From NCBI RefSeq assembly GCF_024502345.1, contig NZ_JALDNN010000001.1: DNA of 64,000 bases; one strand, 5' to 3'. Shown here piece by piece: positions 1 to 14,862 of this stretch (position 1 is its first letter; each line of letters starts with the position of its first letter). The stretch comes from Escherichia coli (GTDB lineage: Bacteria > Pseudomonadota > Gammaproteobacteria > Enterobacterales > Enterobacteriaceae). A model generated the notes under the pieces. That model had not been told where the DNA came from and made no database searches. It saw nothing but the letters and a program-made list of their open reading frames with translations. The position numbers and the translations under genes are program-made.

Positions 1-672
1 GACCGTTCCGTGGCAAAGCAAAAGTTCAAAATCACCAACTGGCCCACCTACAATAAAGCCCTCATCAACCGTGGCTCCATAACTTTCTGGCTGGATGATG
101 AAGCTATTCAGGCCTGGTATGAGTCAGCAACACCTTCTTCACGAGGCAGACCTCAGCGCTATTCTGACCTTGCCATCACGACTGTGCTGGTCATTAAACG
201 CGTATTCAGGCTGACCCTGCGCGCTGCGCAGGGCTTTATTGATTCCATTTTTTCTCTGATGAACGTTCCGCTACGCTGCCCGGATTACAGCTGTGTCAGC
301 AGGCGGGCAAAGTCGGTTAATGTCAGTTTCAAAACGCCCACCCGGGGTGAAATCGCACACCTGGTAATTGATTCCACCGGGCTGAAGGTCTTCGGTGAAG
401 GCGAGTGGAAAGTCAAAAAGCATGGCCAGGAACGCCGCCGTATCTGGCGTAAGCTGCATCTCGCCGTTGACAGTAAAACACATGAAATCATCTGCGCTGA
501 CCTGTCGCTGAACAACGTTACGGACTCAGAGGCCTTCCCCGGGTTAATCCGGCAAACCCACCGGAAAATCAGGTCAGCCGCCGCCGATGGCGCTTACGAT
601 ACCCGGCTATGTCACGATGAACTGCGGCGTAAGAAAATCAGCGCGCTTATCCCTCCCCGAAAAGGTGCGGGT
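1..672 (+). mobile_element. IS903-like (IS5 family) insertion sequence remnant; transposase N-terminal ~221 aa only, 3' part missing
   Basis: ORF 10..846 begins MAKQKFKITNWPTYNKALINRGS...RLCHDELRRKKISALIPPRKGAG, which I recognise as the IS903 transposase. The match ends near nt 672; downstream frame is read-through antisense to the GTPase gene. The element start lies at or beyond the window edge. Confidence 0.75.
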
Positions 673-1094
673 TGCATCACACCGTTCCAGAACTGCTCGT
701 CCACCGACAGCGCACGGTCATCAGCTTTGATGACCCACAGCACCAGGTCAAGCTCTGGCAGCATACGCCGGTACAGGGCGCGGTATTCATGGTCCCGTTG
801 TCCGTTCTCTCCCACGCCCGGTAAATCAACAATCACCAGACTGTGACGACCACTGCGCAGCCGGAAGCGCAGTATGTCGCGGGTGCAGGCGTTCACATCA
901 CTGACGGCGGAGACTTCCCCCCGAAAGAGTTCGTTACAGAGCGACGACTTACCGGCACCACTCTTGCCCATGATGCCAATCACCGGCTCGTAGTGGGTCA
1001 GATTCTGAATACGTTCAAGAATAAGCTGGCGAAGCGTATCGGGAAGCGACGCCAGCGGTTTTTCCAGGGCCTGAAGGCCATCAGTTTTATTCAT
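672..1094 (-). pseudogene. C-terminally truncated YfjP/YeeP-family GTPase
   Basis: ORF 612..1094 (-) has a P-loop GIMGKSGAGKSS and DLPGVGE motif typical of prophage YfjP/YkfA/YeeP GTPases. Only ~140 aa of an expected ~290 remain before the IS903 junction. Confidence 0.6.
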
Positions 1095-1726
1095 ACAGGG
1101 TTCTCAGCGTGAAAAACAAAAATCCCCGCGCTCCGGTCAGGGAGGCGGGGGATTCACGGAGATAATATCTATCTGAATTTATTTAGAATATAAGCAGGCT
1201 CATGTAACTGTAGCAGTGTCAACTTTACATCACAGCTCATGTTGGCTGGTGGTATTTTGCCAATAGTAGACATTTACGCCTAGGTTTAGATATCGAAATT
1301 AGTACACCAATATAGATACAGCAAAGAGGGAACTGATTTGTCTGCGCGAGACTAGAACCGTTGCCCCCTGTGGTTCGATGGATTGCAGGAAAATCATTTC
1401 CGGTGCTGAAGAGAGCCTCCGATACAACCTGAGAATATTTTAAGAACATCAAAATGAATGACGTAATTTACTCAAAGGCGATTGCCTAATATGTCATGAT
1501 ATTAGTAGCATTTAATTGCGTGAAAGTTTGTATATTCTTTTGAATTTATCTCAAAGCTAAAACCTCGTCAAAAATACACAAAAGGGTTTTGAGAAACAAG
1601 AGCCTGATGCTGAATCTGCTACAGAGCTGGGTTCTGTTCTGTTAAACTTGCGGTTAAAAATTTCCAAGAAAACCTAGGATATGACATGAGTTCACTGCAC
1701 ACCAGTAGTAGCAGCAGGGCGGTCAC

Positions 1727-4540
1727 ATGCCAATGGAGAGCTGTACGCAAATGAACGCCGTAGAAATTGAACAAGCCATCACGGATCTTGCAGAGCAACC
1801 CTTTGATCCTATAGAGTTTCCTTATGCTTTTCTTGAAGCCTTTGGTAACAAGGAAACGACTGTCAAACGCTTGCGCGCCGGTGCATCAAACAAATCCGAC
1901 TTGGGCGGTGTTCTCCAGAGCAATAATATTCACATTCTGACCTGCGAAGCAGGGACTGTGACTCAGATGTTGGCCGCGCTCAAGGCTAGCCCTGCGACAA
2001 CTAAAGCCAAGGCGAAGTTCATCCTGGCTACAGATGGCAAAGATTTCGAAGCTGAAGACCTCGTTAGCGGTCAGACTGTCGCTTGCGCCTTTAAAGACTT
2101 CCCAGATCACTTCGGCTTTTTCTTGCCATTAGCAGGCATTAGCACAGTTCGTCAGATTTGTGAGAACTCCTTTGACATTCGGGCCACTAGCCGGCTGAAT
2201 CGTCTGTATGTCGAGTTGTTGAAAGATAACCCTACCTGGGGGACGGCGGAGCGACGTCATGACATGAACAAATTCATGACTCGGCTGATCTTTTGTTTTT
2301 TCGCTGAGGATACTGACATTTTCGTGGGTAAGGGACGCTTTACTGAAACCGTTGCGCAGATGAGTACAAGAGATTCGTCGAATACGCATGAAGTTATCGC
2401 TACCTTGTTTCGTGCCATGAACACCAGTAACAAAGATAGAGCCGCCGCTGGCATCCCGCGCTGGGCCAATGAGTTTCCTTATGTCAACGGACGCTTGTTC
2501 TCTGGGAGTAATGATGTACCACTGTTCAGTAAGATTGCACGGTCTTATTTGCTCCATGTGGGTAGCCTTGACTGGACCAAGATTAATCCGGATATCTTTG
2601 GCTCGATGATTCAGGCAATTGCCGAAGACGAAGAACGCGGAGAGCTGGGGATGCATTACACCAGCGTACCCAACATCTTAAAAGTTTTGAATCCACTATT
2701 TCTGGACGACCTGCGCGCAAAGCTGGATGAGGCGGGTGACAATCCGCGTATGTTGCTTAACCTGCGTAAGCGCATTTCCCACATCCGTGTGTTCGACCCA
2801 GCGTGCGGTTCTGGTAACTTTTTGGTTATCGCGTACAAGGAAATGCGTGCCATTGAGGCCGAAATCAACAAGCGGCGTAATGAGCCAGATCGCGCCTCGG
2901 ATATCCCACTTACCAACTTTCGCGGGATTGAACTAAGAGATTTCCCGGCAGAGATCGCCCGCCTTGCGCTTGTTATCGCTGAGTACCAATGTGATGTACT
3001 GTACCGTGGGCTGCGGTTGGCCTTGGCTGAGCTTCTTCCGTTACGCAACGAAAATTGGATTACCTGTGGCAATGCACTACGGCTCGACTGGTTAAGAATT
3101 TGCCCGCCGACAGGAACAGGTGTGAAATTACATGGCGATGACTTGTTTGGATCTCCGCTTGATCAGGCAGAGATCGACTTTGAGAATGAAGGCGGAGAGA
3201 CATACATTTGCGGTAACCCACCATACCTTGGTTCAAAGTGGCAGACGGATGAACATAAAGCTGATCTTGGCACAATCTTTTCTGGTCGCGTGAAAAATTG
3301 GAAATCGCTCGATTATGTTGCTGGCTGGTTCCTGAAAGCCGCTGACTATGGTAGCCAGACAAGTTCCCAGGCTGCTTTTGTTGCCACTAATTCAATCAGC
3401 CAAGGGCAGCAAGTGTCGATTCTGTGGCCGGAAATATTCAAGGCAGGACAAGAGATTAGTTTCGCTTACACGAGCTTTAAGTGGTCGAACCTCGCTACTC
3501 ACAACGCCGGGGTCACAGTTGTTATCATCGGAATTTCTAACTGTGTAGGAAAGTCGCGACGCCTCTTTTCGGCTGGAGGAGACAATGGTGCGACGACGTG
3601 TCGTGAGGTGGAGCGCATCAACGCCTATTTGATCGCTGGCCCTAACATCATTGTGGAGGGGGACAGTTGTCCAGCCGACAGTCTTGCAACGATGCAGTTC
3701 GGTAACCACCCGTACTATGGTGCATCACTGATCTTTTCGAGATCTGAAGCACAGCAGATGATGTCTGTCGATCCGCGTACGGCGCGTTTTATTCGCCCAC
3801 TATATGGCTCCCAAGAGTTCATTTCCGCTGTGCCACGAGCCTGTCTATGGATTAACGACGATGAGGCTGACGAAGCGGGGACGATTCCTCTGATAGCTGA
3901 GCGTATGAGCGCCGTAGCAAGTGCTAGACGTGCAAAAAAACAAGACAAGGCAGCCCAGAAACTGGCTAAGACTCCATATCGCTTTCGCGACCAGCAGACA
4001 TCTACGAATCATATTCTTGTGGTTCCTCGAGTCAGTTCAGAGAACCGTCCTTGCTTGCCGGTTGGATTACTTGACTCTGACTCTATCGTTCAAGATCAAG
4101 CATTCGCCCTTTACGACGCTCCTCTCTGGAACCTCGCCATCATAGCGAGTCGCCTGCATCTAGTTTGGATCGCCACGGTTTGTGGAAAGTTAGAGACACG
4201 CTACCGCTATTCAAACACCCTCGGCTGGAATACTTTCCCGCTCCCAACACTCACTGAGAAAAATAAGGCAGACCTCACGCGCTGTGCAGAGGATATTCTT
4301 CTGACTAGGGAGCATCACTTCCCTGCAACCATTGCAGACCTTTATGACCCCGAGAAGATGCCAGACGACCTGCGTATTGTGCACGAGCGTAATGACGAAG
4401 TGCTTGAGCGTATTTACATTGGGCGCCGCTTTAAGAATGACACAGAGCGGCTTGAGAAGCTGTTTGACCTTTATACTAAGATGGCCGCTTCAACTGCATC
4501 GGGCAAAAGCAATAAACGTAAAGTGGGAACCAATGCATGA
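1727..4540 (+). CDS. MmeI-family (type IIG/IIL-like) N6-adenine DNA methyltransferase with target-recognition region; N-terminal nuclease motif apparently degenerate
   Basis: 937-aa ORF. SAM motif I FDPACGSGNFLV, catalytic motif IV GNPPY, and MmeI/PglX hallmarks FPYVNGRLF, HYTSVPNILKVLNPLFLDDL, FVATNSISQGQQVSILWP, RYRYSNTLGWNTFP, LYDPEKMP. Alternative start at 1751 (MNAVEIEQ). Confidence 0.85.
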   Translation: MPMESCTQMNAVEIEQAITDLAEQPFDPIEFPYAFLEAFGNKETTVKRLRAGASNKSDLGGVLQSNNIHILTCEAGTVTQMLAALKASPATTKAKAKFILATDGKDFEAEDLVSGQTVACAFKDFPDHFGFFLPLAGISTVRQICENSFDIRATSRLNRLYVELLKDNPTWGTAERRHDMNKFMTRLIFCFFAEDTDIFVGKGRFTETVAQMSTRDSSNTHEVIATLFRAMNTSNKDRAAAGIPRWANEFPYVNGRLFSGSNDVPLFSKIARSYLLHVGSLDWTKINPDIFGSMIQAIAEDEERGELGMHYTSVPNILKVLNPLFLDDLRAKLDEAGDNPRMLLNLRKRISHIRVFDPACGSGNFLVIAYKEMRAIEAEINKRRNEPDRASDIPLTNFRGIELRDFPAEIARLALVIAEYQCDVLYRGLRLALAELLPLRNENWITCGNALRLDWLRICPPTGTGVKLHGDDLFGSPLDQAEIDFENEGGETYICGNPPYLGSKWQTDEHKADLGTIFSGRVKNWKSLDYVAGWFLKAADYGSQTSSQAAFVATNSISQGQQVSILWPEIFKAGQEISFAYTSFKWSNLATHNAGVTVVIIGISNCVGKSRRLFSAGGDNGATTCREVERINAYLIAGPNIIVEGDSCPADSLATMQFGNHPYYGASLIFSRSEAQQMMSVDPRTARFIRPLYGSQEFISAVPRACLWINDDEADEAGTIPLIAERMSAVASARRAKKQDKAAQKLAKTPYRFRDQQTSTNHILVVPRVSSENRPCLPVGLLDSDSIVQDQAFALYDAPLWNLAIIASRLHLVWIATVCGKLETRYRYSNTLGWNTFPLPTLTEKNKADLTRCAEDILLTREHHFPATIADLYDPEKMPDDLRIVHERNDEVLERIYIGRRFKNDTERLEKLFDLYTKMAASTASGKSNKRKVGTNA

Positions 4541-6582
4541 GCAACAAGATTAGATCTGTACCGTCAGTTTCTGTTACCTACTCACGCAACGGAGCATCGA
4601 CCAAGGCTAATTCTCTTGGGATGCGTCCTATGCAAGAAAGGGCTTATGAGAAGCGCGGAGAACAATATCTTCTCATAAAGTCGCCGCCCGCCTCTGGCAA
4701 GAGTCGTGCGCTGATGTTCGTCGCACTCGATAAACTCGCAAACCAGGGGATCAAACAGGCAATCATTGTCGTGCCGGAAAAATCTATCGGCGCGAGCTTC
4801 AACGATGAACCGCTATCGCAGTTTGGATTCTGGGCTGATTGGCATGTTGAACCTAAGTGGAATCTGTGCAACGCCCCCGGTAACGACAACGGCGGCAAGG
4901 TAAAATCTTTCGGCTCTTTTCTTGAAAGTAGCGACAAGGTGCTTGTTTGTACACACGCAACCTTTCGCTTCGCGGTCGATGCCTACGGTGTAGAGGCGTT
5001 TGACGATCGCCTGATCGCCGTCGATGAATTTCACCATGTGTCCGCTAACCCGGATAACAAGCTTGGTCAGCATCTGGGACAGTTCATTGAGCGTGACAAG
5101 ACGCACATCGTGGCCATGACCGGCTCCTACTTCCGGGGAGATGCGGAAGCCGTTTTGGCTCCTCAGGATGAGTCTAGGTTCGATACCGTCACCTACACCT
5201 ACTACGAACAACTCAACGGTTACGAATACCTCAAACAGCTTGATATCGGATACTTCTTTTATAGTGGATCATACATTGATGACATCCTCAATGTCCTCGA
5301 TCCTGACAAGAAAACGATTATCCATATTCCCAACGTCAATTCGCGCGAGAGTACGAAGGATAAAATTAAGGAGGTGGAGCACATTCTGAGCGAGCTTGGC
5401 GATTGGCAAGGTGCGGATCCTACGACTGGTTTTCAGCTAGTCAAGCGCCCCGATGGCCATGTGTTGCGTATTGCTGACCTGGTGGACCCAGCCAGTCAAG
5501 GCAAGATTCAGGAAAGCCTCCGAGCTCCAGAAATGAAGACAGACCGTGACTATGTAGACATCATTATTGCACTTGGTATGGCGAAGGAAGGTTTCGACTG
5601 GATCTGGTGCGAACATGCGCTGACTGTTGGCTACCGTGCCAGCCTGACTGAGATCGTGCAGATTATCGGTCGCGCTACTCGCGACGCGCCGGGTAAAACC
5701 CGCGCGAGATTTACTAACTTGATCGCCGAGCCCGACGCTGTAGAGGGCGCAGTAACTGAGGCAGTCAACGATACCTTGAAAGCTATCGCGGCGAGCCTGT
5801 TGATGGAACAGGTACTGGCTCCGCGCTTCGAGTTCAAGCCCAAGAATCCTGAAATCGGTCCGACTCCAGGCTTTGATTATGGTGATGGAGGATATGACCC
5901 GGATAGCTGCAATTTTGGTGTTAATGAGCAGACAGGGACGTATCAAATCGAGATTAAGGGACTTGCCGAGCCTAGGAGCAAAGAGGCGGCACGTATCTGC
6001 CAGGAAGATTTAAACGAAGTGATCGCGGCCTTTGTGCAGGATAAGCCCGCCATCGAACGAGGCCTGTTCGATGAAGAGCTGATCCCTGAAGAGTTAACAC
6101 AGGTTCGTATGGGTAAGATCATCAAAGAAAAGTATCCTGAACTTGATGCTGAAGATCAGGAGGCTGTACGTCAGCATGCTATCGCCGCCCTTAACCTCAC
6201 GCAGCAGGCCAAGCGTCTTGCTACCGGTGAAAACGATGGGACGCTCAATACTGCTCTTATTGACGGAGTGCGTCGCTTTGCAATGGATGTGCGCGATTTA
6301 GACATAGACCTTATCGACCGCATCAATCCCTTTGGTGAAGCCTACGCTATCCTTGCTAAGACGATGAGTGAAGACAGTTTGAAGCAGGTCGCGGCGGCCA
6401 TCTCGGCCAAGCGTACTTCGATCACGCCTGAAGATGCCAAGGTGATCGCCAAGCGTGCCGCTGAATTCAAACGTGAACGTGGGCGCCTCCCATCGTTAAC
6501 TTCGCTGGATGCTTGGGAAAAACACCTTGCTGAAGGTGCAGCCGCGTTTATGCGTTTTAGGGCGGAGGGACGTTATGAGTAA
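4537..6582 (+). CDS. SF2 DExH-box helicase with ~280-aa C-terminal extension of unknown function
   Basis: 681-aa ORF. Walker A PPASGKS, motif II VDEFHH, motif III MTGSY, motif VI QIIGRATR. Start ATG overlaps the methyltransferase stop (ATGA at 4537-4540). Confidence 0.8.
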   Translation: MSNKIRSVPSVSVTYSRNGASTKANSLGMRPMQERAYEKRGEQYLLIKSPPASGKSRALMFVALDKLANQGIKQAIIVVPEKSIGASFNDEPLSQFGFWADWHVEPKWNLCNAPGNDNGGKVKSFGSFLESSDKVLVCTHATFRFAVDAYGVEAFDDRLIAVDEFHHVSANPDNKLGQHLGQFIERDKTHIVAMTGSYFRGDAEAVLAPQDESRFDTVTYTYYEQLNGYEYLKQLDIGYFFYSGSYIDDILNVLDPDKKTIIHIPNVNSRESTKDKIKEVEHILSELGDWQGADPTTGFQLVKRPDGHVLRIADLVDPASQGKIQESLRAPEMKTDRDYVDIIIALGMAKEGFDWIWCEHALTVGYRASLTEIVQIIGRATRDAPGKTRARFTNLIAEPDAVEGAVTEAVNDTLKAIAASLLMEQVLAPRFEFKPKNPEIGPTPGFDYGDGGYDPDSCNFGVNEQTGTYQIEIKGLAEPRSKEAARICQEDLNEVIAAFVQDKPAIERGLFDEELIPEELTQVRMGKIIKEKYPELDAEDQEAVRQHAIAALNLTQQAKRLATGENDGTLNTALIDGVRRFAMDVRDLDIDLIDRINPFGEAYAILAKTMSEDSLKQVAAAISAKRTSITPEDAKVIAKRAAEFKRERGRLPSLTSLDAWEKHLAEGAAAFMRFRAEGRYE

Positions 6583-7753
6583 TTCTGATTTAGACGATTT
6601 GGCGGCAGAACTTGCTGAATTTGCACCACCGGAGAAGAAAAAAGGACGTCCAGCCAGCGAGGAACGCATCATCGCAGGTTTTGAGGAAATCCAGCGCTTC
6701 GCTGACCAACATGGACGTGCGCCGCAACACGGCGAAGAGCGTGAGATCTTTGAGCGCCTCTATGCAGTGCGGCTCGACCGGCTACGCAGTCTCCCAGACT
6801 GCCGTGCCTTGCTAGAGCCGCTGGATCATCAAGGCTTATTGGCTGGAGGGGGTGATGTAGCGGAGTCAGCGGACGAAATTATCGATATCGATAATTTGGC
6901 TGCCGAACTGACGGATGTTTCCAGCGAGGATGATATCACAGTCTTGCGTCATGTTCGTGCTAGCGCCGAAAAGCGTGCTGTACAAGGGATCGCGGATCGC
7001 AAGCCGTGCGAGGATTTTGATACATTCAAACCGCTATTTGAACAGGTGCGCAGTGATCTAAGTTCAGGGTTAAGAGTGACCCGACCTTTTGGACAGTATG
7101 CAACGATTGAAGTGGGCCATTGGTTCATCCTGGATGGTCAAACGGCTTATGTGGCTGAGGAAGGTGAAGAGTTCGATTCTCCACAGGGGAAGAAAGATGC
7201 TCGGCTGCGTGTCATTTATTCGAATGGTACAGAAAGTAACCTGCTTCGGCTGTCATTAGTTCGTGCTTTGTATAAAGACGAAACAGCACGTCGAATTACC
7301 GATCCAGACATGGGGCCTTTATTCAGCGATGCTCTAGAAGAGAGCGATCTAGAAAGTGGCACCATTTATGTATTGCGTTCGCTATCAGATAACCCTTATG
7401 TGGCCGAACATCGTGATGTTATTCACAAGATTGGTGTGACTGGCGGCAAGGTCGAGACTCGTATTGCTAATGCTGAACACGATTCCACCTATCTGTTGGC
7501 GAAGGTAGAGGTGGTCGCTTCATACAAACTCGCAGGTATCAACCGCACCCGGATGGAAAACCTGTTTCACAGGTTGTTTGCACCCGCAAGGCTTAACATT
7601 ACCATTAACGACCGTTTCGGCCATCCAGTACAGCCCGAGGAATGGTTTCTCGTTCCGTTATTCGTTATCGATGAGGCTGTTGCACGTATTAAGGATGGTA
7701 GCATCATTGGGTATGTTTATGACCCCATGTCTGCGAAACTGGTGAAGGCATAG
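6575..7753 (+). CDS. T5orf172/MUG113 (GIY-YIG superfamily) domain protein, candidate nuclease, with acidic N-terminal domain of unknown function
   Basis: C-terminal GTIYVLRS...HKIGVTGGKVETRIANAEH...PEEWFLVPL fits the T5orf172 GIY-YIG-like pattern. GGAGGGA Shine-Dalgarno 6 nt upstream of ATG 6575; start overlaps the helicase stop (taa 6580-6582). The ORF track's upstream ATG at 6509 lacks an RBS. Confidence 0.65.
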   Translation: MSNSDLDDLAAELAEFAPPEKKKGRPASEERIIAGFEEIQRFADQHGRAPQHGEEREIFERLYAVRLDRLRSLPDCRALLEPLDHQGLLAGGGDVAESADEIIDIDNLAAELTDVSSEDDITVLRHVRASAEKRAVQGIADRKPCEDFDTFKPLFEQVRSDLSSGLRVTRPFGQYATIEVGHWFILDGQTAYVAEEGEEFDSPQGKKDARLRVIYSNGTESNLLRLSLVRALYKDETARRITDPDMGPLFSDALEESDLESGTIYVLRSLSDNPYVAEHRDVIHKIGVTGGKVETRIANAEHDSTYLLAKVEVVASYKLAGINRTRMENLFHRLFAPARLNITINDRFGHPVQPEEWFLVPLFVIDEAVARIKDGSIIGYVYDPMSAKLVKA

Positions 7754-7779
7754 TGAAGTGACACACTGAATTTGGCCAC

Positions 7780-7812
7780 CTGTTCTGAGGTGAGTATATC
7801 ACCTCAGAACAG
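7780..7812 (+). terminator. Perfect 14-bp-stem hairpin just downstream of the three-gene cassette; no U-tract
   Basis: ctgttctgaggtga / gtata / tcacctcagaacag read directly. Lack of a T-run makes intrinsic-terminator function uncertain; could be an RNA stability or protein-binding element. Confidence 0.3.
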
Positions 7813-7868
7813 CACAGGAATAAAAGATACTGATTTGAATGTACCTATACTTTGCGATGTGAGGATCA

Positions 7869-8660
7869 ATGAATAGTAACCTGACCAAGATATGTTACCG
7901 TGGTGAGACTGGTGAAAGTGATCTAAGAACGTTGATACTTGGTGAGATTCTATATATCTCACTACGAGATGTTTTAATCACGCTGAATAAAGAAAATAGA
8001 GAAATCAACGCTGATTACACAGTAAAATCGATGGCTGGAATAATCAGGGCGCAATTACAGGCTCTTGACCCTGATGAGTATATTACTACAGATGCTGAAA
8101 ATGGTGTTTTTGAAGGTCAGAAAGAGATCTTCGTCACCCAGCCAGGTTTGTATCGAGTCATGTCAAGTGACCGAAGCGCTGCCGGTAAGCGCTTTCAAAA
8201 ATGGTTATTTCATGAAGTCATACCATCATTGACTAAGCATGGTGTATACCCGCCTCCGCCAGAAGCGAAAGGTTCAGCCCTTGCACAAATGGCTGAGATA
8301 CTTGCTCAAAATTCGCGAGCACTTGCTGACGCAATCCATAAACACGAAAAACTGGCCGAAGATGTCTCACAGGTTAAAGGTAAAGTTGCCAACGTTGAAA
8401 GCCGTCTGGAACTGTTAGAATCAGGTCCTTCCACTGTAACTGAAGATATGCATACTCTTGATAGCCGTCTCGCTTATTTGGACATGAGCATGGAAGAAAA
8501 GCATACCACCGAGACATTAGCCTGGTGCGAGAATATTTCTGTTCAAAATAACAGGAAGGTGATTCGCAAGGACTGTAGGGAGAATTCGCTCTTTACAACG
8601 CAGACTATCGACGAAGCAATCGCTATCATGACTGAAAGTGGAAAAATCACACCAAATTGA
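7869..8660 (+). CDS. Bro-N (KilA-N/antirepressor-like) domain protein with coiled-coil C-terminus
   Basis: 263-aa ORF. N-terminal ...DLRTLILGEILYISLRDVLITL...GLYRVMSSDRSAAGKRFQKWLFHEVIPSLTKHGVY resembles the Bro-N fold pattern. GAGGAT RBS upstream. Confidence 0.55.
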   Translation: MNSNLTKICYRGETGESDLRTLILGEILYISLRDVLITLNKENREINADYTVKSMAGIIRAQLQALDPDEYITTDAENGVFEGQKEIFVTQPGLYRVMSSDRSAAGKRFQKWLFHEVIPSLTKHGVYPPPPEAKGSALAQMAEILAQNSRALADAIHKHEKLAEDVSQVKGKVANVESRLELLESGPSTVTEDMHTLDSRLAYLDMSMEEKHTTETLAWCENISVQNNRKVIRKDCRENSLFTTQTIDEAIAIMTESGKITPN

Positions 8661-8716
8661 AGATCCTGGGGTTCAGATTATCTGCTGGCTATCTTATTGA
8701 GCTCTGACGTAAAATA

Positions 8717-8739
8717 GGCCTTCCCACAAAGAGAAGGCC
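8717..8739 (-). terminator. Intrinsic terminator hairpin for the minus-strand YfjJ-like gene, between convergent genes
   Basis: ggccttc / 9-nt loop / gaaggcc, followed on the minus strand by tatttt. Confidence 0.45.
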
Positions 8740-8748
8740 ATTGCCGAC

Positions 8749-9375
8749 TTACAGATCGATTTGGCTACAGCCGAAGTTACGGTCTCCTTCACCAAACACT
8801 TTGCTTTCGACTTTGGTGAGGTAATCCAGTCGGGTTAACAGCGCTTGGTAGTTATGCTGGAAGTCAGCATTATTGGTATCCAGCACGTACTTACAGTTGT
8901 CAGGAAAATGGACCAGACCAGGGTGATCATCCAGTTTCAGTCCCAGGGCGCTGTACCACGCTCCCGTAATCATCCCTCTCAGGTTATCGTGCTGATCGTA
9001 ATCCCCGAGGTGGTAGTAAGCGTCTTTGTTGAACAACAGGCAAATGTGGTAGTGGCATTTACCTGACTCAGAATACTCTTTCGCCCATATAATAAATAAA
9101 GGGCAACGGTAGATGCGTTTACCTTCACGCTCCTTACGGGTACGGTCAGCCTCCAGTTTAGCTCTGAGGGAATCACGCATTCGGGATATCACCCCTGGTT
9201 CAAGATTAGGGAAACAGCAGATATTGTCTCCGTTATCGACTATCTTCGGATAATGCAGATCGACACGTACCGCCGTTAACCTGGGGTAACGGTTAGTCAA
9301 ATAACATAATAATTTTTTAATCTTGATCTGATATTCGAGGATATGTACTCCATGAGTACCTTGATATGTTTTCAT
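8749..9375 (-). CDS. YfjJ/YagK-family (inovirus Gp2-like) prophage protein
   Basis: 208-aa ORF resembling the YagK/YfjJ family of CP4-type islands; in the island-backbone position expected from K-12 CP4-57. Confidence 0.65.
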   Translation of the reverse strand: MKTYQGTHGVHILEYQIKIKKLLCYLTNRYPRLTAVRVDLHYPKIVDNGDNICCFPNLEPGVISRMRDSLRAKLEADRTRKEREGKRIYRCPLFIIWAKEYSESGKCHYHICLLFNKDAYYHLGDYDQHDNLRGMITGAWYSALGLKLDDHPGLVHFPDNCKYVLDTNNADFQHNYQALLTRLDYLTKVESKVFGEGDRNFGCSQIDL

Positions 9376-9397
9376 AATATATATCTGTATTTGGTCC

Positions 9398-9418
9398 TAC
9401 GGTCTATAGCAGACCGTA
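9398..9418. promoter_or_regulatory. Perfect palindrome TACGGTCT-ATAGC-AGACCGTA upstream of the YfjJ-like gene; candidate operator
   Basis: 8-bp arms with 5-bp spacer, ~25 bp upstream of the start codon at 9375. Confidence 0.35.
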
Positions 9419-9509
9419 CAGGGATGCCATACAGGCAGGGCTATTCCTGGTCACTGTTGTCGGTATATACTGGTATCAGATCTTAGTACGGATATACTGA
9501 TCTGATTAC

Positions 9510-9542
9510 TACTCTTACTGGTGAATACAGGTAGTAAGAGTA
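9510..9542. promoter_or_regulatory. 10-bp perfect inverted repeat TACTCTTACT-N13-AGTAAGAGTA; candidate protein-binding or recombination site
   Basis: Read directly; lies between the recombinase-like gene stop (9647) and the YfjJ-like gene. Confidence 0.3.
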
Positions 9543-9646
9543 CACAATGCCATTATATAATACCTATCCAACATCTAAATTTGAGACGAAGGTAGCCCCA
9601 GCCTGTGATGGCTGTTAAAAAGTTACTCTGCAATTAGCTTCTGGAA

Positions 9647-10216
9647 TTAACCGATGATTCCGTTATTCCAGTGCCGCTTCACAGTCGATAAACTGATACT
9701 CAATTTCTTTGCAATCTCAGCCTGAGTAAATCCACCTTTCTTAAGTATTGTGATATCACGTCGGTATTTGCTTCCCTCCTTTCGTCCTAATTTCTTCTTA
9801 ACATGTCGATATCGGCTTTTAGTTGATTTCAGATTGTGAATGTCAATCGTATCCTGACGAGCAATCAAAAAAGACAAGCAACTTTCAGCAGAAGGCTCTA
9901 TCCTTGAAGCTGGATGGTAGCTGTAGATAAAAATTTCTTTTTGAAGGCAAAAAAATAAAATATTCTGTAAGTCCTCCACAGTTCTGCCAAGACAGCTTAG
10001 ATCTGGAATGACAAGCGTGTCCTGCCGGTTCATTTCATGATGAATCAATTGTCTGAGTAAACGTTGCTCTGAAACAACCTCTTTAATATCTACCTGCTCG
10101 ATCACAACATGTTCAGGTAGAATATTAAATTTTTGGCATATCTCAGCAAGTGAGTGATGATCTGTAATGCTTTCTTGCTGTTCGCTACTGCATATGGTGT
10201 AAAAAAATGAACGCAT
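9647..10216 (-). CDS. Serine-recombinase (resolvase/invertase)-like protein with C-terminal HTH, conserved residues partly substituted
   Basis: N-terminus MRSFFYTICSSEQQ matches the resolvase catalytic-serine region and DTLVIPDLSCLGRT the second conserved block; C-terminal GGFTQAEIAKKLSISLSTVKRHW is a Hin-like HTH. The ORF track extends to 10345; start chosen at the internal Met. Confidence 0.55.
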   Translation of the reverse strand: MRSFFYTICSSEQQESITDHHSLAEICQKFNILPEHVVIEQVDIKEVVSEQRLLRQLIHHEMNRQDTLVIPDLSCLGRTVEDLQNILFFCLQKEIFIYSYHPASRIEPSAESCLSFLIARQDTIDIHNLKSTKSRYRHVKKKLGRKEGSKYRRDITILKKGGFTQAEIAKKLSISLSTVKRHWNNGIIG

Positions 10217-10371
10217 CTGATGCACTCCGGTGTCATAAATTATTCTTTGATACCTGAACAATGTCATTTTGTATAAAAAATAACCAAAAATAGAGCGTGA
10301 TTGCCAGCGATACTTTGAGTGGTAAAGTAGTATTTTACCTCTCATAATTGTTTGTCCTTCTTTGTTACCTC

Positions 10372-11085
10372 TTAGGTTCTGCTCTCCTGTGAGTATGGGT
10401 TTATAATGATGTCATCCGGTGCATTAACACGGTTGGAAACATTTGTTTTACGGATCACTGGCAGCATAACCACCATCTCATTGACATGGTAAATATCAAT
10501 CCAACAAACAACCGGATAAGGCATAACAATCCCCTTTCTTCTAAGAACTTCATTTATCCCGAATATAATTAATTGGGATGTTGACAAGAGTAGAGTCTGC
10601 CCGACATCAAAGTAATAATCCTCAAAGGTTGTTCTATGAATAAGAATAATGTTTGAATATCCCAAGACACTTTGATGCTTTACATTAAAATGTCGTTGAT
10701 TGTAAATGTAAATGGCTTTTTCCATATCGTAATTTTCCCTCAGCGAGGATAGCCTTTCACGTATAACTGTTTTTTCATCTTTCCCCATGAATTCATCATT
10801 AGCGTTCAGTTTAAAGTAATCTGTAATTGGGATTTTTAATGGACTCATGATGTTCGTTTTCCAGATTAACGAACAGTATTCTTCCAGAGTCACTTCTTTT
10901 TCACCTCGATTTCGAATAATTCTTTCATTTATAGTGAATCTTAGTAGATCGTTTTTTAGCTCCTTTATTAGCCATTGATAGCGAAGACATTGCTCGAATA
11001 TATGTACCGTCAACGCCACAGAGTCTGATATGACTGAGGAAAGAGATTTATTATTCATCCTGGCATAATGCTCAAGAGTTTCCAT
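10372..11085 (-). CDS. Hypothetical protein, AT-rich orphan island gene
   Basis: 237-aa ORF with no recognisable motif; low GC relative to surroundings. Confidence 0.45.
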   Translation of the reverse strand: METLEHYARMNNKSLSSVISDSVALTVHIFEQCLRYQWLIKELKNDLLRFTINERIIRNRGEKEVTLEEYCSLIWKTNIMSPLKIPITDYFKLNANDEFMGKDEKTVIRERLSSLRENYDMEKAIYIYNQRHFNVKHQSVLGYSNIILIHRTTFEDYYFDVGQTLLLSTSQLIIFGINEVLRRKGIVMPYPVVCWIDIYHVNEMVVMLPVIRKTNVSNRVNAPDDIIINPYSQESRT

Positions 11086-11245
11086 CTCAGATTCATTTTT
11101 GTGCGTAAAAGTGTATTTTTTATTGGAAATGTTTTTTACTCCTTATAATTAACATTGCTATTAATTAATCCTGTTTGTAAAGGAGAAGTTTATTAATAAG
11201 TAAAAGTCCGCCTGCATCAAGACACGATGAAAATGTCTTCCTTTC

Positions 11246-11458
11246 TTACTCTATTGCCCGGGTTCGTTGTAAAATCCATTCGTCTATTTCAGCCTCTATC
11301 CAGCCGACAGATTGCAGCCCCAGACGACGTTGTTTCGGGAACGTTGGGTCATAGCGTGGCGATTTCGGATTGATCCAGTCATAGATTGTTGAACGTGACA
11401 AGCCCGTTTTGTCAATTACTGTAGAAAGACGAAGTATTTTAACATTAGATTTGTTCAT
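11246..11458 (-). CDS. alpA: AlpA-family prophage transcriptional regulator (excision activator)
   Basis: 70-aa ORF MNKSNVKILRLSTVIDKTGLSRSTIYDWINPKSPRYDPTFPKQRRLGLQSVGWIEAEIDEWI matches AlpA. Confidence 0.85.
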   Translation of the reverse strand: MNKSNVKILRLSTVIDKTGLSRSTIYDWINPKSPRYDPTFPKQRRLGLQSVGWIEAEIDEWILQRTRAIE

Positions 11459-11879
11459 AGCTGATTACCTCAAATCGAAGTGCTCTGGATGATGTGAGAT
11501 TAGCTTTAAGGCAGCCAATCTAAAATGTATGTGCCAAAAAAACTTTTTTTTACGAACGGGAAATAAATATCCTATTGAAATTTAATGATTTTATTTTTTT
11601 TCTGTCGGGTCCATCAGAACGGTGTGAATTCAGTTACAGCCTTCCGGTCCGGTAATGGGCCAGTTATATGTTGAGTGGCTGCGCTTCGATGACTTCTGTT
11701 TCAGTGGGCTGGTCTATCTCCGACGTGCTGTGGCAGGTAGCGGTTCAGCAGTAGCCATTATTCGTTCTGCTCCGTCAGTACCGCACCCAGCAGCCGCAAG
11801 ATGCTCTCTTCATTGGGAAGATACCTACCACTGTCAACGCCAAGATTGTTGGCCGTTTCGTCCGCATCCCCTATTGGTC

Positions 11880-12570
11880 ATTAATGTTGTCCGCTTTCCG
11901 CCGTTTCATCTCTTTGTTCAGGCGCTCCAGCGTGTTTGTGGAGTGGGTTTTTCACTTGGTGTGCTTTCGGGAGGCCGAAGGACGCCAGCACGTCTGCCTC
12001 TGCTTCGTCCATCACCCCGGTGACCGCCGGGTTGCTTTTCTCCCATTGACCGGCAACCTTGCACAGGTGGCATGGGCGCTTTTCTCGTCGGTCTGCACGA
12101 ACACCTGTTGCAGCGCCGCACGGACCACCGACTGGTTTGCACGGCTGACGCGGCTCAGCACGTTGCGCATGAAGTGGACCCGGCAGCGCTGCCAGCTGGC
12201 GGAGAACATCTGCCTATCGCCGCCTTCAGGCTCAGCAGGAAGGTCAGCCAGGATGCCGTTTATCCATGCTTCCTGGATAACCGCGTTGAGCGCCTTCTCA
12301 GACAATCTGTGGGCCTCCAGGAAGGGCGGGAAGTACGTCCCTTTAAGCAGCTTCGGAATACGCAGGTCCACAGCGTGCCGAGCTGGCGGGGACTGACGGT
12401 CACGATAGCCGTTGTGGTAGGTTTCGCGCTCATCGCTGCGCTAGTGGGCTCCGCGTTGATGTGCTGAGTGACATCTGCTTCCATAATGCAGTTGAGCATA
12501 AATTCGGTGAGTTCACGCAGAAAATCCTCGCCGCCGAGTAGCATCAGGGTGTTGCTGAATGTCATGCTGT
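11880..12570 (-). pseudogene. IS256-family (Mutator-type) transposase remnant, frameshifted with internal deletion
   Basis: Minus-strand fragments: 12260..12565 (MTFSNTLMLLGGEDFLRELTEFMLNCIMEADVTQ, typical N-terminus) and 12012..12371 (...QRCRVHFMRNVLSRV motif) in different frames; the DDE core between them is absent. Confidence 0.55.
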
Positions 12571-12784
12571 TGTCATTCCGAATTTACACCACGCCCTAAG
12601 ACTCTACCTTATTTTCTTTGCAAAGCAGGCTGCTTGTGCAAGTTGTACATGTAGTTAACAGGCAGTAAGTATGGCAAACCATTATTTCATGTCTTCACAT
12701 CTGGTTCTTCATTCAGTTAAGTAGTAAAAATGAAAGGGATGTCAGAGCAAGAACAGATGACGTTGTGTAACTGACCAATGAAGG

Positions 12785-13558
12785 ATGATATGGAATATGC
12801 TTGATATTTTTTGCTCGGAATTTGAAGAAAAAAGAAACAAATTAAAGACCTACCTTGAAAGCTCGGGATTTCTTTATAGGCATTCTATCATCAAAAAAAT
12901 GTCTCTTTTGGATGGTATGGATGAAAGCCAGAATTTTGAGTTGTTGCAGGCGAAACAATATAATCGTGATGATATACAATGCTGGGAGTATATTAGCTCT
13001 AAGTGGACCGTCGTTCCTATTATGATGGGTTCGCAAAGCCTTAAACACTTTTTTACATGGAATTTTAAGGCCGCTGGGATATTTCAGCGATATGGAAAGG
13101 ATATGTGGGATATCAACAAGATAATTGCAGTTAAATCTTTATTGTTTGCTAGTTCAGTCTTAGGTAGTTGCCTTGGGGTTGCAGGCTATGGCCCGTTGCT
13201 GCCTTCGGAGCTTGCATTAGACAAAAAGAAGCTAACTAAGAAAAAACAGTCAGCAAGAATGGGAGGGATATCTAAGGCTGAATTATATCTCCCGATAAAA
13301 GAAGAGACGATAAGATTGCTCCACCAAAATGTTCCTGTGGATGGTAGATGGAAAAATAAAACGGTTGCAGCAAAGGCAATAGAGGCAGATTTAGTCATCT
13401 TTGTACAAAATTTGAAATCTCAAAACCAAAATCTGGATCTTAATGAAGAAGATATTATTACAGTCGTCAAACGTTGGGAACGCAATGATGAAAGAGTAAA
13501 GGCTGCATTTGAGGGAACGGTGAAGCAAAAAATCTCTGGCAAGAAGGGCTCGGGTTAG
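12785..13558 (+). CDS. Hypothetical AT-rich, lysine-rich protein with one predicted hydrophobic segment
   Basis: 257-aa ORF; hydrophobic stretch IIAVKSLLFASSVLGSCLGVAGYGPLL. No recognisable domain. Confidence 0.45.
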   Translation: MIWNMLDIFCSEFEEKRNKLKTYLESSGFLYRHSIIKKMSLLDGMDESQNFELLQAKQYNRDDIQCWEYISSKWTVVPIMMGSQSLKHFFTWNFKAAGIFQRYGKDMWDINKIIAVKSLLFASSVLGSCLGVAGYGPLLPSELALDKKKLTKKKQSARMGGISKAELYLPIKEETIRLLHQNVPVDGRWKNKTVAAKAIEADLVIFVQNLKSQNQNLDLNEEDIITVVKRWERNDERVKAAFEGTVKQKISGKKGSG

Positions 13559-13589
13559 AACTTCTCATTATTTTTTCCAAAAATAAGAA

Positions 13590-13609
13590 CCGCGCCTTTG
13601 AAGGCGCGG
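13590..13609 (-). terminator. Hairpin terminator between convergent integrase and hypothetical gene
   Basis: ccgcgcc-tttgaa-ggcgcgg, followed on the minus strand by a T-rich tract. Confidence 0.4.
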
Positions 13610-13620
13610 ATTAAGTAGAA

Positions 13621-14862
13621 TCAAACAACAAGTTTTAATGCACCGGCACTAGATTCTACCATGCTTCCTTTATCTGCTCTTTTAACAAAATCAGCCCACC
13701 ATTGCATCATCGGCCTACGTTGCTCAAGATAATCACTGCGGTTATAAGCGCGACGTACCTCATTTTTGTCTACATGAGCAAGTGCGGCTTCAATGACATC
13801 AGGAGGAAATCCTTGCTCATTGAGGGCTGTACTGGCGATAGAACGCAAACCATGTGAAACCAGCACTCCCCCTAAACCGGCACGCTTGAGTGCAGCATTC
13901 ACGGTTTGACTGTTCATCGGCTGAGTGGGCTTAATGCGGCTTGGAAAAATAAAATCTCGGCCACCACTGAGCGGCTTCATCATTTCCAGAATAGCCAGAG
14001 CCCCATCAGATAATGGAACGGTATGGTCCCGGTTCATTTTCATTCGGGCTGCTGGAATTTTCCATTCGTTAGCATCAAAATCGATCTCATTCCACCGAGC
14101 TTCTGCGGCTTCTGCGGGGCGGGTGATGGTGAGAAGTTGCCACATGAACAGACACCGCGTAGACAGGCTGATACTGGCCGTACGCATAGTTTGCATCAAC
14201 TGAGGCAACTGATCCGGACGAATACTGGGCATGTTCTTTTTCTGAGGTTTCTCGAAGGCTTTGCCAATATTAACACTGGGAACTGCATCAATCAGGCCCG
14301 TGTTTTGGGCATAAATCATGACTTCATTGATCCGTTGGCAAAGACGGCGGACAGTTTCCAGTGCTCCTCGGGCCTGAACGGGTTGAACGGCTTGAACCAG
14401 TGTATGGGCTTTAATATCTGTAACGCTTACGTTGCCAATTGCGGGAAATATATCTCTTTCAAGCGAACGCCAGATATCATCAGCATAGTCCTCGGTTACA
14501 CTGGCTTTCTTCACATTCCACCAACGCTCGGCAACTAACAAGAAAGTGTTGGTTTTGGCCTCCTGAGAATTTCTTATCTGTTCTTTTTGGTATTCCTGAG
14601 GATCGATTCCTTTTGCCAGTAATACTTTGGATTCAGCTCTGAGCTTACGAGCATCGGAAAGCGAGACAGCAGGATAGGAACCGAAGCTCTGTTTAGTTCG
14701 CTGTTTTGTCAGAGGTCGGTAATAACGGAATTGCCAGAGCTTACTGCCACTGGATTTGATTAGCAGCGTCAGTCCGTCACCATCATACAACTGATAATCG
14801 GCATCTTTAGATTTGGCTGCTTTGATTTCCGTATCCGTTAACGGCTTGGTTTTTCTTGCCAC
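13621..14862 (-). CDS. intA: P4-type tyrosine integrase of a CP4-57-like island (GTG start)
   Basis: 413-aa ORF beginning (M)ARKTKPLTDTEIKAAKSKDADYQLYDGDGLTLLIKSSGSKLWQFRYY, immediately downstream of ssrA on the same strand. Confidence 0.9.
   Translation of the reverse strand: MARKTKPLTDTEIKAAKSKDADYQLYDGDGLTLLIKSSGSKLWQFRYYRPLTKQRTKQSFGSYPAVSLSDARKLRAESKVLLAKGIDPQEYQKEQIRNSQEAKTNTFLLVAERWWNVKKASVTEDYADDIWRSLERDIFPAIGNVSVTDIKAHTLVQAVQPVQARGALETVRRLCQRINEVMIYAQNTGLIDAVPSVNIGKAFEKPQKKNMPSIRPDQLPQLMQTMRTASISLSTRCLFMWQLLTITRPAEAAEARWNEIDFDANEWKIPAARMKMNRDHTVPLSDGALAILEMMKPLSGGRDFIFPSRIKPTQPMNSQTVNAALKRAGLGGVLVSHGLRSIASTALNEQGFPPDVIEAALAHVDKNEVRRAYNRSDYLEQRRPMMQWWADFVKRADKGSMVESSAGALKLVV

What the first reader, a model, noticed from the sequence alone, without database searches (positions are those of the whole stretch)
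7780..7812. Perfect 14-bp-stem hairpin after the cassette, lacking a U-tract
A strong stem-loop lies 27 nt after the stop of gene 3 and before the Bro-N gene, but it is not followed by a T-run on either strand. It may be a weak terminator or insulator, an RNase-protective 3' end, or a protein-binding palindrome.
Basis: seen in the sequence. Interest (0 to 1): 0.3.

Follow-up and report, generated by a model that had tools for sequence, protein, structure and literature searches.

The report
Hairpin inside a dead insertion-sequence end
The hairpin is real, but it is part of a 65-base leftover of an IS911/ISEc52-type insertion sequence that landed right after the defence cassette; replication errors lengthened its stem and have repeatedly flipped its loop between strains.

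Summary
Arms 7780-7793 and 7799-7812 form 14 perfect pairs around the loop GTATA, with no T-run on either strand, and chance does not explain it.

The hairpin is not a feature of the cassette. Window 7754-7818 is the left end of an IS911/ISEc52-group (IS3 family) element. It starts directly after the GIY-YIG stop codon and is cut off about 9 nt before the orfA start.

E. coli KCJ3K291 and two metagenome contigs carry the same insertion with orfA still attached. E. coli TC24 has the cassette without it.

In intact elements the stem has only 7 pairs and brackets the element's own -10-like hexamer. It also forms the inner helix of a predicted fold that covers the orfA ribosome-binding site. This reading is inferred from sequence and folding.

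Here, three A-to-T changes fall exactly on the three mismatches, and one further change gives 14 pairs. This is the signature of template-switch homogenisation of a quasi-palindrome.

The loop is polymorphic by inversion: GTATA in about 13 E. coli genomes and TATAC in about 45, with at least three independent flips.

The hairpin is most likely a neutral scar and a mutational hotspot, not a terminator. The flip also removes or restores a promoter-like site facing Bro-N; whether that matters is untested.

The parts
7751..7753 (+). TAG stop codon of the GIY-YIG/T5orf172 gene, the last gene of the MmeI-like methyltransferase / DEAD helicase / GIY-YIG cassette. The insertion-sequence relic starts at the next base.
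   Evidence: In E. coli TC24 (L005) homology to the cassette ends exactly here and unrelated DNA follows.
7754..7818 (+). 65-bp orphan left end (IRL plus 5' leader) of an IS911/ISEc52-group IS3-family insertion sequence. It is truncated after CACAGG, about 9 nt before where orfA would start.
   Evidence: It matches left ends of IS911-type elements in 4027 of 5426 E. coli genomes at 80-90% identity and in 120 loci across Gammaproteobacteria. The same insertion with orfA still attached is in L135, L133 and L134. That orfA fragment matches HTH_Tnp_1.
7754..7779 (+). Outer part of the IRL: terminal TG, then TGAAGTGACACACTGAATTTGGCCAC. It holds the conserved GGCCACC block and a -35-like TTGGCC at 7772-7777.
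   Evidence: It differs at 0-1 positions from the nearest IS911-type left ends. TTGGCC is paired with a -10 hexamer by the scan in the other loop allele.
7780..7793 (+). Left arm of the hairpin. Bases 7783-7786 (TTCT) replace the family's AACA and are the exact reverse complement of AGAA in the right arm.
   Evidence: None of 61 unique family left ends has TTCT. The probability that 3 random substitutions give a stem of 13 bp or more is about 5e-6.
7794..7798 (+). Loop GTATA. It is the inverted form of TATAC, which is the orientation matching the family's -10-like hexamer (TANNN plus T). In this window the TATACT hexamer therefore lies on the minus strand (AGTATA, 7793-7798).
   Evidence: Both loop states occur in cassette-linked copies. 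Family loops are TATGC, TATCA, TATTC and similar. A promoter-like site is found only in the TATAC allele.
7799..7812 (+). Right arm of the hairpin. G7812 is A in most family members and in L135, and it adds the 14th pair.
7815..7818 (+). CAGG, the truncated remnant of the element's CAGGTG ribosome-binding-site block. The deletion junction lies between 7818 and 7819.
   Evidence: Intact elements continue CAGGTGC(C/T)..ATG. Homology to the Bro-N upstream region of islands without the cassette begins at 7819.
7869..8660 (+). Bro-N domain gene, 56 nt downstream of the hairpin on the same strand. It belongs to the island backbone, not to the relic.

Best explanation
The hairpin is a molecular fossil. 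An IS911/ISEc52-type insertion sequence (IS3 family) inserted directly after the stop codon of the GIY-YIG gene, in the same orientation as the cassette.

In this group the left end carries a short 7-bp inverted repeat (GAGGTGA / TCACCTC). The repeat brackets the -10-like hexamer of the element's own weak promoter. In transcripts that enter from outside, it forms the inner helix of a nested fold whose outer helix (CCACCUG : CAGGUG) covers the orfA ribosome-binding site.

While the element still had orfA, a replication template switch copied one arm from the other (AACA to TTCT), turning the quasi-palindrome into a 13-bp stem. One more change (A to G at 7812) gave 14 pairs, and a loop change gave TATAC. 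A deletion then removed everything from just before orfA and joined the relic to the Bro-N upstream region.

The perfect palindrome is now a hotspot for template switching that inverts its 5-nt loop (TATAC to GTATA and back). The window carries the inverted form.

In its present place the hairpin has most likely no selected function. It cannot act as an intrinsic terminator. Any RNA-stabilising or promoter effect is incidental.

Shown: the identity of the relic, the intermediate forms, the clustering of changes, and the recurrent loop inversion. Inferred: the template-switch mechanism, the promoter and RBS-masking roles in the intact element, and the neutrality of the relic.
For: Identity of the relic:
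- 7754-7818 aligns with IS911-type left ends. An example is L001/L006, which continue into ATGAAAAAAAGAAATTTC, the orfA start.
- Such ends occur in 4027 of 5426 E. coli genomes and in 120 loci from many Gammaproteobacteria.

Same insertion, less decayed:
- E. coli KCJ3K291 (L135) and metagenome contigs L133 and L134 have TAG|TGAAGTGACACAC... followed by orfA.
- The L135 cassette differs from the window's by 1 SNP in about 7 kb.

Cassette without the relic: L005.

Progression of the hairpin:
- Active ISEc52: AACA / TATGC / CAA, 7-bp stem.
- L135: TTCT / TATGC / CAA, 13 bp.
- Relic: TTCT / TATAC or GTATA / CAG, 14 bp.

Clustering of differences from the nearest IS911 end:
- 9-10 of 33 positions differ inside the hairpin, against 0-1 of 32 outside.
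- The three arm changes hit exactly the three mismatches (random expectation about 5e-6).

Loop inversion:
- About 13 genomes have GTATA and about 45 have TATAC.
- Both states occur on each of several backgrounds: with the 1-nt deletion and intact Bro-N (L131 / L137), with the same IS5 insertion (L004 / L132), and with the 9-nt duplication plus IS911 insertion (L127, L138, L139 / L128). In the last group the cassettes differ by 0-1 SNP in 6 kb.

Literature:
- Template switching homogenises inverted-repeat arms and inverts spacers, recurrently and reversibly (PMC8604942; PMC8794818).

Folding:
- Intact elements fold into the nested structure that masks the ribosome-binding site.

Promoter:
- 60 of 61 family loops start with TA and are followed by T.
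- IS2, also IS3 family, has an extended -10 promoter starting TGAT just inside its IRL (PMC3299598).
Against: - No experiment here shows template switching. The arm changes could also reflect selection for a stronger stem while the element sat downstream of an expressed operon.
- Loop states could in principle have been shuffled by very short recombination tracts. The nearest flanking markers are only 9-100 nt away.
- The positions of the IS911 promoter hexamers could not be checked in the primary papers, which are not held.
- Neutrality is an absence-of-evidence argument. The stem is invariant in about 60 genomes, but only about one change would be expected there anyway.
- The history needs at least one recombination. 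The relic sits next to cassette variants that differ by about 15%, and the last 216 nt of the GIY-YIG gene are shared by all of them.
Confidence: 0.8

Rival explanations
1. The hairpin is kept because it serves the cassette's transcript. It would be a factor-independent pause or weak terminator, or a barrier to 3'-to-5' exonucleases that stabilises the upstream mRNA, as intercistronic REP hairpins do.
For: It lies 27 nt after the stop codon on the sense strand and is very stable. All four derived changes increase pairing. The stem is invariant in about 60 genomes.
Against: There is no T-run. The cassette exists without it (L005) and with only the IS version (L135). The stem came from an insertion sequence. 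Template switching both creates and maintains perfect stems without selection. Only about one substitution would be expected in 28 stem bases at the observed flank divergence of about 3%.
Confidence: 0.12
2. The loop carries the -10 hexamer of the relic's promoter, so loop inversion is a recombinase-free on/off switch for transcription into Bro-N.
For: The TATAC allele gives TTGGCC-16-TATACT with a TG extension, 9 of 12 matches, pointing at Bro-N. The window's GTATA allele gives no promoter-like site on either strand. Flips are recurrent. The loop change G to A (TATGCT to TATACT) raised the -10 match from 4 of 6 to 5 of 6 consensus positions (the hexamers are; the count is mine).
Against: Consensus matches are not activity, and one such site is expected by chance in the scanned region. 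Intact and disrupted Bro-N genes both occur with both loop states. The flip frequency looks like a mutational hotspot rather than phase variation: roughly one flip per lineage where cassettes differ by 0-5 SNPs in 6 kb. The indigenous promoter of IS911 is described as weak (PMC9330008).
Confidence: 0.1
3. The palindrome is a protein-binding site. It would be an operator for the IS-encoded OrfA/OrfAB protein, still bound in trans by transposase from resident IS911/ISEc52 copies, making the relic a recombination-prone solo end.
For: GAGGTGA / TCACCTC flanks the promoter and repeats the CACCT of the conserved GGCCACCTG block across the family. OrfAB binds a subterminal region of the IRs (PMC2909936). 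In IS2, OrfA binds next to PIRL. Most E. coli genomes carry related elements. The surrounding DNA is crowded with IS insertions.
Against: No binding data exist for this motif. The core of the stem was fixed by my search pattern, so its conservation is partly ascertainment. The extended outer stem is unique to this relic and is absent from active elements.
Confidence: 0.1
4. The two loop orientations are assembly or sequencing artefacts at a palindrome, or come from homologous recombination between alleles, not from repeated mutation.
For: Palindromes can trouble some sequencing chemistries. The haplotypes are clearly mosaic.
Against: The palindrome is only 33 nt, far shorter than reads. Independent assemblies of the same strain or clone agree: AW1.7 assembled twice, the AH02/AH04/CT01/CX08/CX12 set, 2022H047/2022H048, and HCP5S3_I2/LCP30S3_I5. 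Recombination would need crossovers within 9-100 nt on both sides of the loop, several times over.
Confidence: 0.05

Closest known systems
Left inverted repeat and leader of IS911 / ISEc52 (IS3 family, IS3 group)
   Same: It has the terminal TG, the TGAAGTG..TTTGGCCACCTG block, the GAGGTGA-N5-TCACCTC repeat and the CACAGG(TG) block, all at the same spacing. There are 0-1 differences outside the hairpin. The same insertion still carries orfA in L135.
   Different: Only 65 bp remain. There is no orfA/orfB, no right end and no direct repeat. The stem is 14 bp instead of 7, and the loop is inverted.
Quasi-palindrome template-switch mutations. These were first proposed by Ripley in 1982 and are documented for yeast inverted repeats in PMC8604942 and for RNA hairpins in PMC8794818. 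The E. coli hotspot work is recalled from my own knowledge.
   Same: An imperfect inverted repeat becomes perfect through several simultaneous complementary changes. The spacer inverts, and the inversion is recurrent and reversible.
   Different: This case is a natural polymorphism in an intergenic IS relic across E. coli and a Klebsiella plasmid. The inverted spacer happens to hold a -10-like hexamer.
Left-end inverted repeats of IS10 and IS50, which mask the transposase translation start in read-through transcripts (recalled from my own knowledge of the Mahillon and Chandler 1998 review; not read here)
   Same: In intact IS911-group elements the predicted fold pairs CCACCUG with CAGGUG, the ribosome-binding site. 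The element's own -10-like hexamer lies inside the fold, so native transcripts would lack the 5' halves.
   Different: This is predicted only. In the window the ribosome-binding site and the gene are gone, so only the inner helix is left.
Intrinsic (Rho-independent) terminators and REP-type mRNA stabilisers
   Same: A stable stem-loop just after the last gene of an operon.
   Different: There is no U-tract, no REP or Rfam match, and the origin is an IS.
Invertible promoter switches such as fimS
   Same: A promoter element changes strand by inversion between inverted repeats.
   Different: Only 5 nt invert between 14-bp arms. No recombinase gene is associated. The frequency looks like a mutational hotspot rather than programmed switching.

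Membership tests
IS3-family insertion sequence, IS911/ISEc52 group (as a truncated relic) | A terminal inverted repeat starting 5'-TG and matching the group's IRL | tested here: met
   7754-7789 matches IS911-type IRLs with 0-1 differences outside the hairpin. There are thousands of matches in E. coli.
IS3-family insertion sequence, IS911/ISEc52 group (as a truncated relic) | orfA (HTH_Tnp_1) and orfB transposase genes downstream of the IRL | tested here: not met
   They are absent in the window, where the sequence after 7818 is the Bro-N upstream region. They are present at the same insertion in L135, L133 and L134. The window therefore holds a relic, not an element.
IS3-family insertion sequence, IS911/ISEc52 group (as a truncated relic) | A right inverted repeat and a 3-bp target duplication | tested here: not met
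   There is no partner IRR next to the relic. An active ISEc52 copy (L136) shows both ends and a TTG duplication.
Intrinsic terminator | A G+C-rich stem-loop followed directly by a run of T | tested here: not met
   The stem is present, but it is followed by CACAGGAATAAAAG on the + strand and by GTGGCCAAATTC on the - strand. The scan finds no terminator-like site.
Intrinsic terminator | Transcript 3' ends map at the site | not testable with these tools
   No transcriptome data are available here.
Template-switch (quasi-palindrome) mutation hotspot | The ancestral imperfect inverted repeat is converted so that one arm is the exact complement of the other, through clustered changes | tested here: met
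   The family has AACA, whereas L135 and the relic have TTCT, which is the reverse complement of AGAA. Differences cluster in the hairpin.
Template-switch (quasi-palindrome) mutation hotspot | Spacer inversion between perfect arms, recurring independently | tested here: met
   TATAC and GTATA both occur on at least three shared backgrounds.
Template-switch (quasi-palindrome) mutation hotspot | Dependence on replication and on exonucleases that suppress template switching | not testable with these tools
   This needs genetics.
Described RNA families (Rfam 15) | A match to a covariance model | tested here: not met
   Nothing in 1-14000 overlaps the hairpin at E-values up to 1.
Recombinase-driven invertible promoter | A dedicated invertase or recombinase and an invertible segment that carries a promoter | tested here: inconclusive
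   A -10-like hexamer does change strand. However, the segment is only 5 nt, and no invertase appears among the genes annotated around the relic in the carrier loci I fetched.

The most novel reading that the evidence does not exclude
The perfected hairpin would act as a recombinase-free invertible promoter. The extended -10 hexamer (TGaTATACT) sits in the loop, so each template-switch inversion moves it to the other strand. That would switch transcription from the IS relic into the Bro-N gene on (TATAC, about 45 genomes) or off (GTATA, this window and about 13 genomes). If so, replication errors at a short palindrome would give a heritable, reversible expression polymorphism next to a defence cassette.
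Probability: 0.1. Interest if true: 0.65.

Novelty: new member of a known kind. Interest (0 to 1): 0.35.

Why it matters
For annotation, the result removes a false lead. The stem-loop after this methyltransferase/helicase/GIY-YIG cassette is an insertion-sequence scar, not a regulatory element of the defence system. It marks the edge where the cassette was joined to the island backbone.

For mutation biology, it offers a well-resolved natural series in E. coli: 7-bp stem, 13-bp stem, 14-bp stem, then flip and flop of the loop. The series shows template switching building a long perfect hairpin and then repeatedly inverting its loop. Because intermediate states survive in sequenced strains, rates and genetic requirements can be measured directly.

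It also warns that perfect stems, and apparent compensatory changes in them, need not reflect selection on RNA structure.

Tried and rejected
- Rfam scan of 1-14000 at E-values up to 1: nothing at the hairpin.
- Terminator and promoter scans of the window around the hairpin: nothing on either strand.
- Does the hairpin travel with the cassette? No. The cassette occurs without it (L005). In some genomes IS26 cuts the relic after its first 5 bases (L002).
- Does loop orientation correlate with an intact Bro-N gene? No. Intact Bro-N occurs with GTATA (2013C-4282) and with TATAC (CFSAN051542, ECC-1470). Disrupted copies also occur with both.
- Covariation test of the family fold: not run. My collection pattern fixed the 5' halves and the stem core, so the pair counts would be circular. 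Only conservation of the unconstrained CAGGTG block and the predicted folds are reported.
- Exact hexamers of the IS911 promoter in the primary papers (EMBO J 1997 and 2001): the papers are not held. The assignment rests on sequence, family conservation and the IS2 parallel.
- Search for an active element that already has the perfect hairpin: none among 120 genome loci. The metagenome scan found only the cassette-linked copy.
- The full order of events among cassette haplotypes could not be resolved. The haplotypes are recombinant, with a breakpoint about 217 nt before the stop codon.

Full report
**1. The observation**

Positions 7780-7793 (CTGTTCTGAGGTGA) and 7799-7812 (TCACCTCAGAACAG) are perfectly complementary around the loop GTATA. 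The left arm begins 27 nt after the TAG stop codon (7751-7753) of the third cassette gene.

The 45-nt stretch holding the hairpin folds at about -25 kcal/mol as RNA. As DNA (43 nt) it folds at -15.6 kcal/mol, with z = -7.4 against shuffles. No T-run follows on either strand, and the terminator scan finds nothing in 7650-7980.

It is the only hairpin in the window with 14-bp arms and a 3-8 nt loop. Forty Markov simulations of the window gave no hairpin with arms of 12 bp or more.

**2. What the sequence is**

A similarity search of 7650-7950 against complete E. coli genomes split the region into three blocks:
- The cassette, up to 7753.
- A 65-base block, 7754-7818.
- The Bro-N side, from 7819.

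The middle block on its own matched a plasmid site that continues into ATGAAAAAAAGAAATTTCAGC. I recognise this as the start of IS911 orfA; RefSeq labels related copies 'IS3-like element ISEc52 family transposase'.

Searched alone, the block hits 4027 of 5426 E. coli genomes at 80-90% identity. Copies at 95% or more occur only next to this cassette.

A pattern scan of one genome per species returned 120 loci across Enterobacterales, Photobacterium, Aeromonas, Oceanospirillales and other groups. All share one architecture:

TG(A/T)AGTGG - 8 variable bases - AATTTGGCCACCTG - N5 - AGGTGA - TATNN - TCACCTC - about 10 bases - ACAGGTG - 5-6 bases - ATG.

Window 7754-7818 is therefore the left inverted repeat and leader of such an element. 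It is cut off after CACAGG, about 9 nt before the start codon.

**3. The same insertion, less decayed**

A metagenome scan looked for the window-type left arm followed by an intact AGGTG block. It found two contigs (L133, L134). In both, the GIY-YIG gene ends ...GGCATAG and is followed by TGAAGTGACACAC..., the hairpin, CACAGGTGCCATAATGAAAAAAAG and orfA.

E. coli KCJ3K291 (L135) has the same junction at 100% identity. Its orfA fragment matches HTH_Tnp_1 and is then interrupted by IS30. Its cassette differs from the window's by one SNP in about 7 kb.

E. coli TC24 (L005) has the cassette with unrelated DNA directly after TAG. An active ISEc52 copy in flgL (L136) shows both ends and a 3-bp duplication.

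So an IS landed immediately after the stop codon. The window retains only its first 65 bases, joined to the Bro-N upstream sequence. That upstream sequence is shared with islands that lack the cassette (L003).

**4. How a 7-bp stem became 14 bp**

| State | Left arm segment | Loop | Outer right arm | Stem |
|---|---|---|---|---|
| Active elements (e.g. L136) | AACA | TATGC | CAA | 7 bp |
| L135, L133, L134 | TTCT | TATGC | CAA | 13 bp |
| Relic | TTCT | TATAC or GTATA | CAG | 14 bp |

- In active elements only GAGGTGA / TCACCTC pairs. The next positions, AACA against AGAA, give three A-A mismatches.
- Against the nearest IS911-type ends, the window differs at 9-10 of 33 hairpin positions but at only 0-1 of 32 outside it.
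- The three left-arm changes are exactly the complements of the right arm at the three mismatched positions.
- Three random substitutions reach a 13-bp stem with probability of about 5e-6.
- None of 61 unique family ends has TTCT.

This is the known signature of template switching at a quasi-palindrome. One arm is copied from the other, and several complementary changes appear at once (PMC8604942; PMC8794818). Selection for a stronger stem cannot be excluded but is not needed.

**5. The loop flips**

After seeing the family loops (TATNC), I predicted that the window's GTATA is an inverted TATAC (note). Cassette-linked copies from other strains then showed exactly that:
- L128, L129, L130, L132 and L137 have TATAC.
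- The window, L004, L127, L131, L138 and L139 have GTATA.

With a 121-nt query across complete E. coli genomes, 13 genomes carry the window's form. About 45 carry the other form, recognisable because the palindrome also matches on the opposite strand.

Both states occur on each of three shared backgrounds:
- A 1-nt deletion with an intact Bro-N gene: L131 versus L137.
- The same deletion plus an identical IS5 insertion: the Klebsiella plasmid L004 versus E. coli L132.
- A 9-nt duplication plus an IS911-type insertion in Bro-N: L127, L138 and L139 versus L128. The cassettes in this group differ by 0-1 SNP in 6 kb.

Taking TATAC as ancestral, because it matches the family orientation, at least three inversions are needed.

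Replicate assemblies of the same strain or clone agree with each other, which argues against artefact. Recombination would need repeated crossovers within 9-100 nt of the loop.

Spacer inversion between perfect arms is described as recurrent and reversible. It is attributed to intermolecular template switching (PMC8604942). Loop inversions at perfect hairpins are also reported in PMC8794818.

**6. What the structure does in an intact element (inferred)**

Sixty of 61 family loops begin with TA and are followed by T, which is the TANNNT pattern of a -10 hexamer. The hexamer is preceded by TG one base upstream and lies 16 nt after TTGGCC.

IS2, of the same family, has a weak extended -10 promoter that starts with TGAT just inside its left repeat, with the OrfA repressor site next to it (PMC3299598). 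IS911 is described as having a weak indigenous promoter and a -10 motif in its IRL (PMC9330008; PMC2909936).

Folding the leaders of six diverse intact members gives a nested structure. The outer helix is GGCC.ACCUG: CAGGU.GCC, which includes the ribosome-binding site. The inner helix is GAGGUGA: UCACCUC.

A transcript starting at the element's own promoter would begin after the loop and lack the 5' halves. A transcript reading in from outside would contain them and would mask the ribosome-binding site. This is the design I recall for IS10 and IS50.

In L135 the extended stem lowers the fold from about -20 to -31.6 kcal/mol. That could have been useful for an element sitting directly downstream of an expressed operon.

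**7. What it does in the window**

The gene it regulated is gone. The hairpin lacks the defining feature of an intrinsic terminator. It may still slow 3'-to-5' decay of the cassette mRNA, but nothing here shows that.

The promoter scan finds TTGGCC-16-TATACT, with the TG extension, pointing at Bro-N in the TATAC allele. It finds nothing on either strand in the window's GTATA allele. The unmodified ISEc52 end scores below the scan's threshold.

The flip therefore removes or restores a promoter-like site. This is the most novel reading that the evidence does not exclude. However, intact and disrupted Bro-N genes are found with both loop states, and the flip frequency is what a mutational hotspot would give.

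**8. Context and limits**

The cassette is an MmeI-like type IIG methyltransferase, a DEAD/ResIII helicase and a T5orf172/GIY-YIG protein. It lies in an integrase-bearing island with Bro-N, a Gp2-family gene, yagL, yagM and an AlpA-like gene.

Cassette variants differ by about 15%, mostly in the methyltransferase. All share the last 216 nt of the GIY-YIG gene and the relic. Recombination has therefore moved the relic, or the cassette, between backgrounds, and the exact order of events is not fully resolved.

**Verdict**

The hairpin is real and its origin is explained. It is an ordinary object, an IS scar, with an instructive mutational history and one untested regulatory possibility.

Noticed in passing
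window 1727-7753: The three-gene cassette is an MmeI-like type IIG methyltransferase (all five MmeI domains), a DEAD/ResIII helicase and a T5orf172/MUG113 GIY-YIG protein. PADLOC recognises only the methyltransferase, so the helicase and nuclease partners are not in its models of known defence systems. In E. coli TC24 (L005) the cassette is followed by a 1650-aa AAA-domain gene and a 478-aa gene instead of the relic.
   Followed up: partly
window about 7537 (217 nt before the GIY-YIG stop codon): There is a sharp recombination breakpoint. The last 216 nt of the GIY-YIG gene are identical or nearly so in all cassette haplotypes, including the one without the relic. Immediately upstream, divergence is about 10%, and the methyltransferase differs by up to about 40% in some 300-nt blocks.
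   Followed up: partly
window 7758/7759 (L002 3110): In at least six E. coli genomes IS26 is inserted after the first 5 bases (TGAAG) of the relic. This links the cassette to an aac(6')-Ib-cr / blaOXA-1 / catB3 resistance module.
   Followed up: no
window 7869-7965 (Bro-N 5' part); L127-L129, L004, L132: Bro-N is disrupted repeatedly in carrier genomes. An IS911/ISEc52-type element (its right-end repeat, TGAAGTGGTCAAC..., appears first on the + strand) is inserted after ...ATATCTCACTA. IS5 is inserted after CCAAG (7889). A 9-nt duplication GGTGAAAGT is also present. Only three complete genomes keep relic and intact Bro-N adjacent.
   Followed up: partly
L130 9182-9290: Another IS3-family left end is inserted 13 nt after the relic. 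It also has a CACCTC ... GAGGTGCCCATG arrangement, with an anti-RBS block upstream of the RBS. This suggests the masking design is general in the family.
   Followed up: no
L047 10776-10866; L007, L118, L045, L072, L123, L030: Several other genomes hold IS911-group left ends truncated just after the hairpin. In Cedecea neteri a second full left end starts right after ...CAGAACAAC. In L118 an IS66-type end (GTAAGCG...) abuts ACAGG, the same position as the window's junction. In L007 an IS66-type end follows ...CACAAAA. This may be a preferred breakage or insertion zone.
   Followed up: no
window 17000-17028: AAAAAAGGTGCTCA-T-TGAGCACCTTTTTT is a perfect 14-bp inverted repeat with a 1-nt spacer, flanked by A6 and T6. 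It looks like a bidirectional intrinsic terminator.
   Followed up: no
window 8717-8739 (- strand): GGCCTTCTCTTTGTGGGAAGGCC followed by TATTTTAC is a terminator-like site between Bro-N and the convergent Gp2-family gene. It is the likely real end of transcription through Bro-N.
   Followed up: no
L135 9343-17700; L127-L129 9330-12800: Downstream of the cassette many genomes hold an 'IS graveyard': IS911-type interrupted by IS30 (as in K-12, L006), an IS3 element with an AL1L pseudoknot, a group II intron, IS110, IS1414 and IS66 fragments.
   Followed up: no
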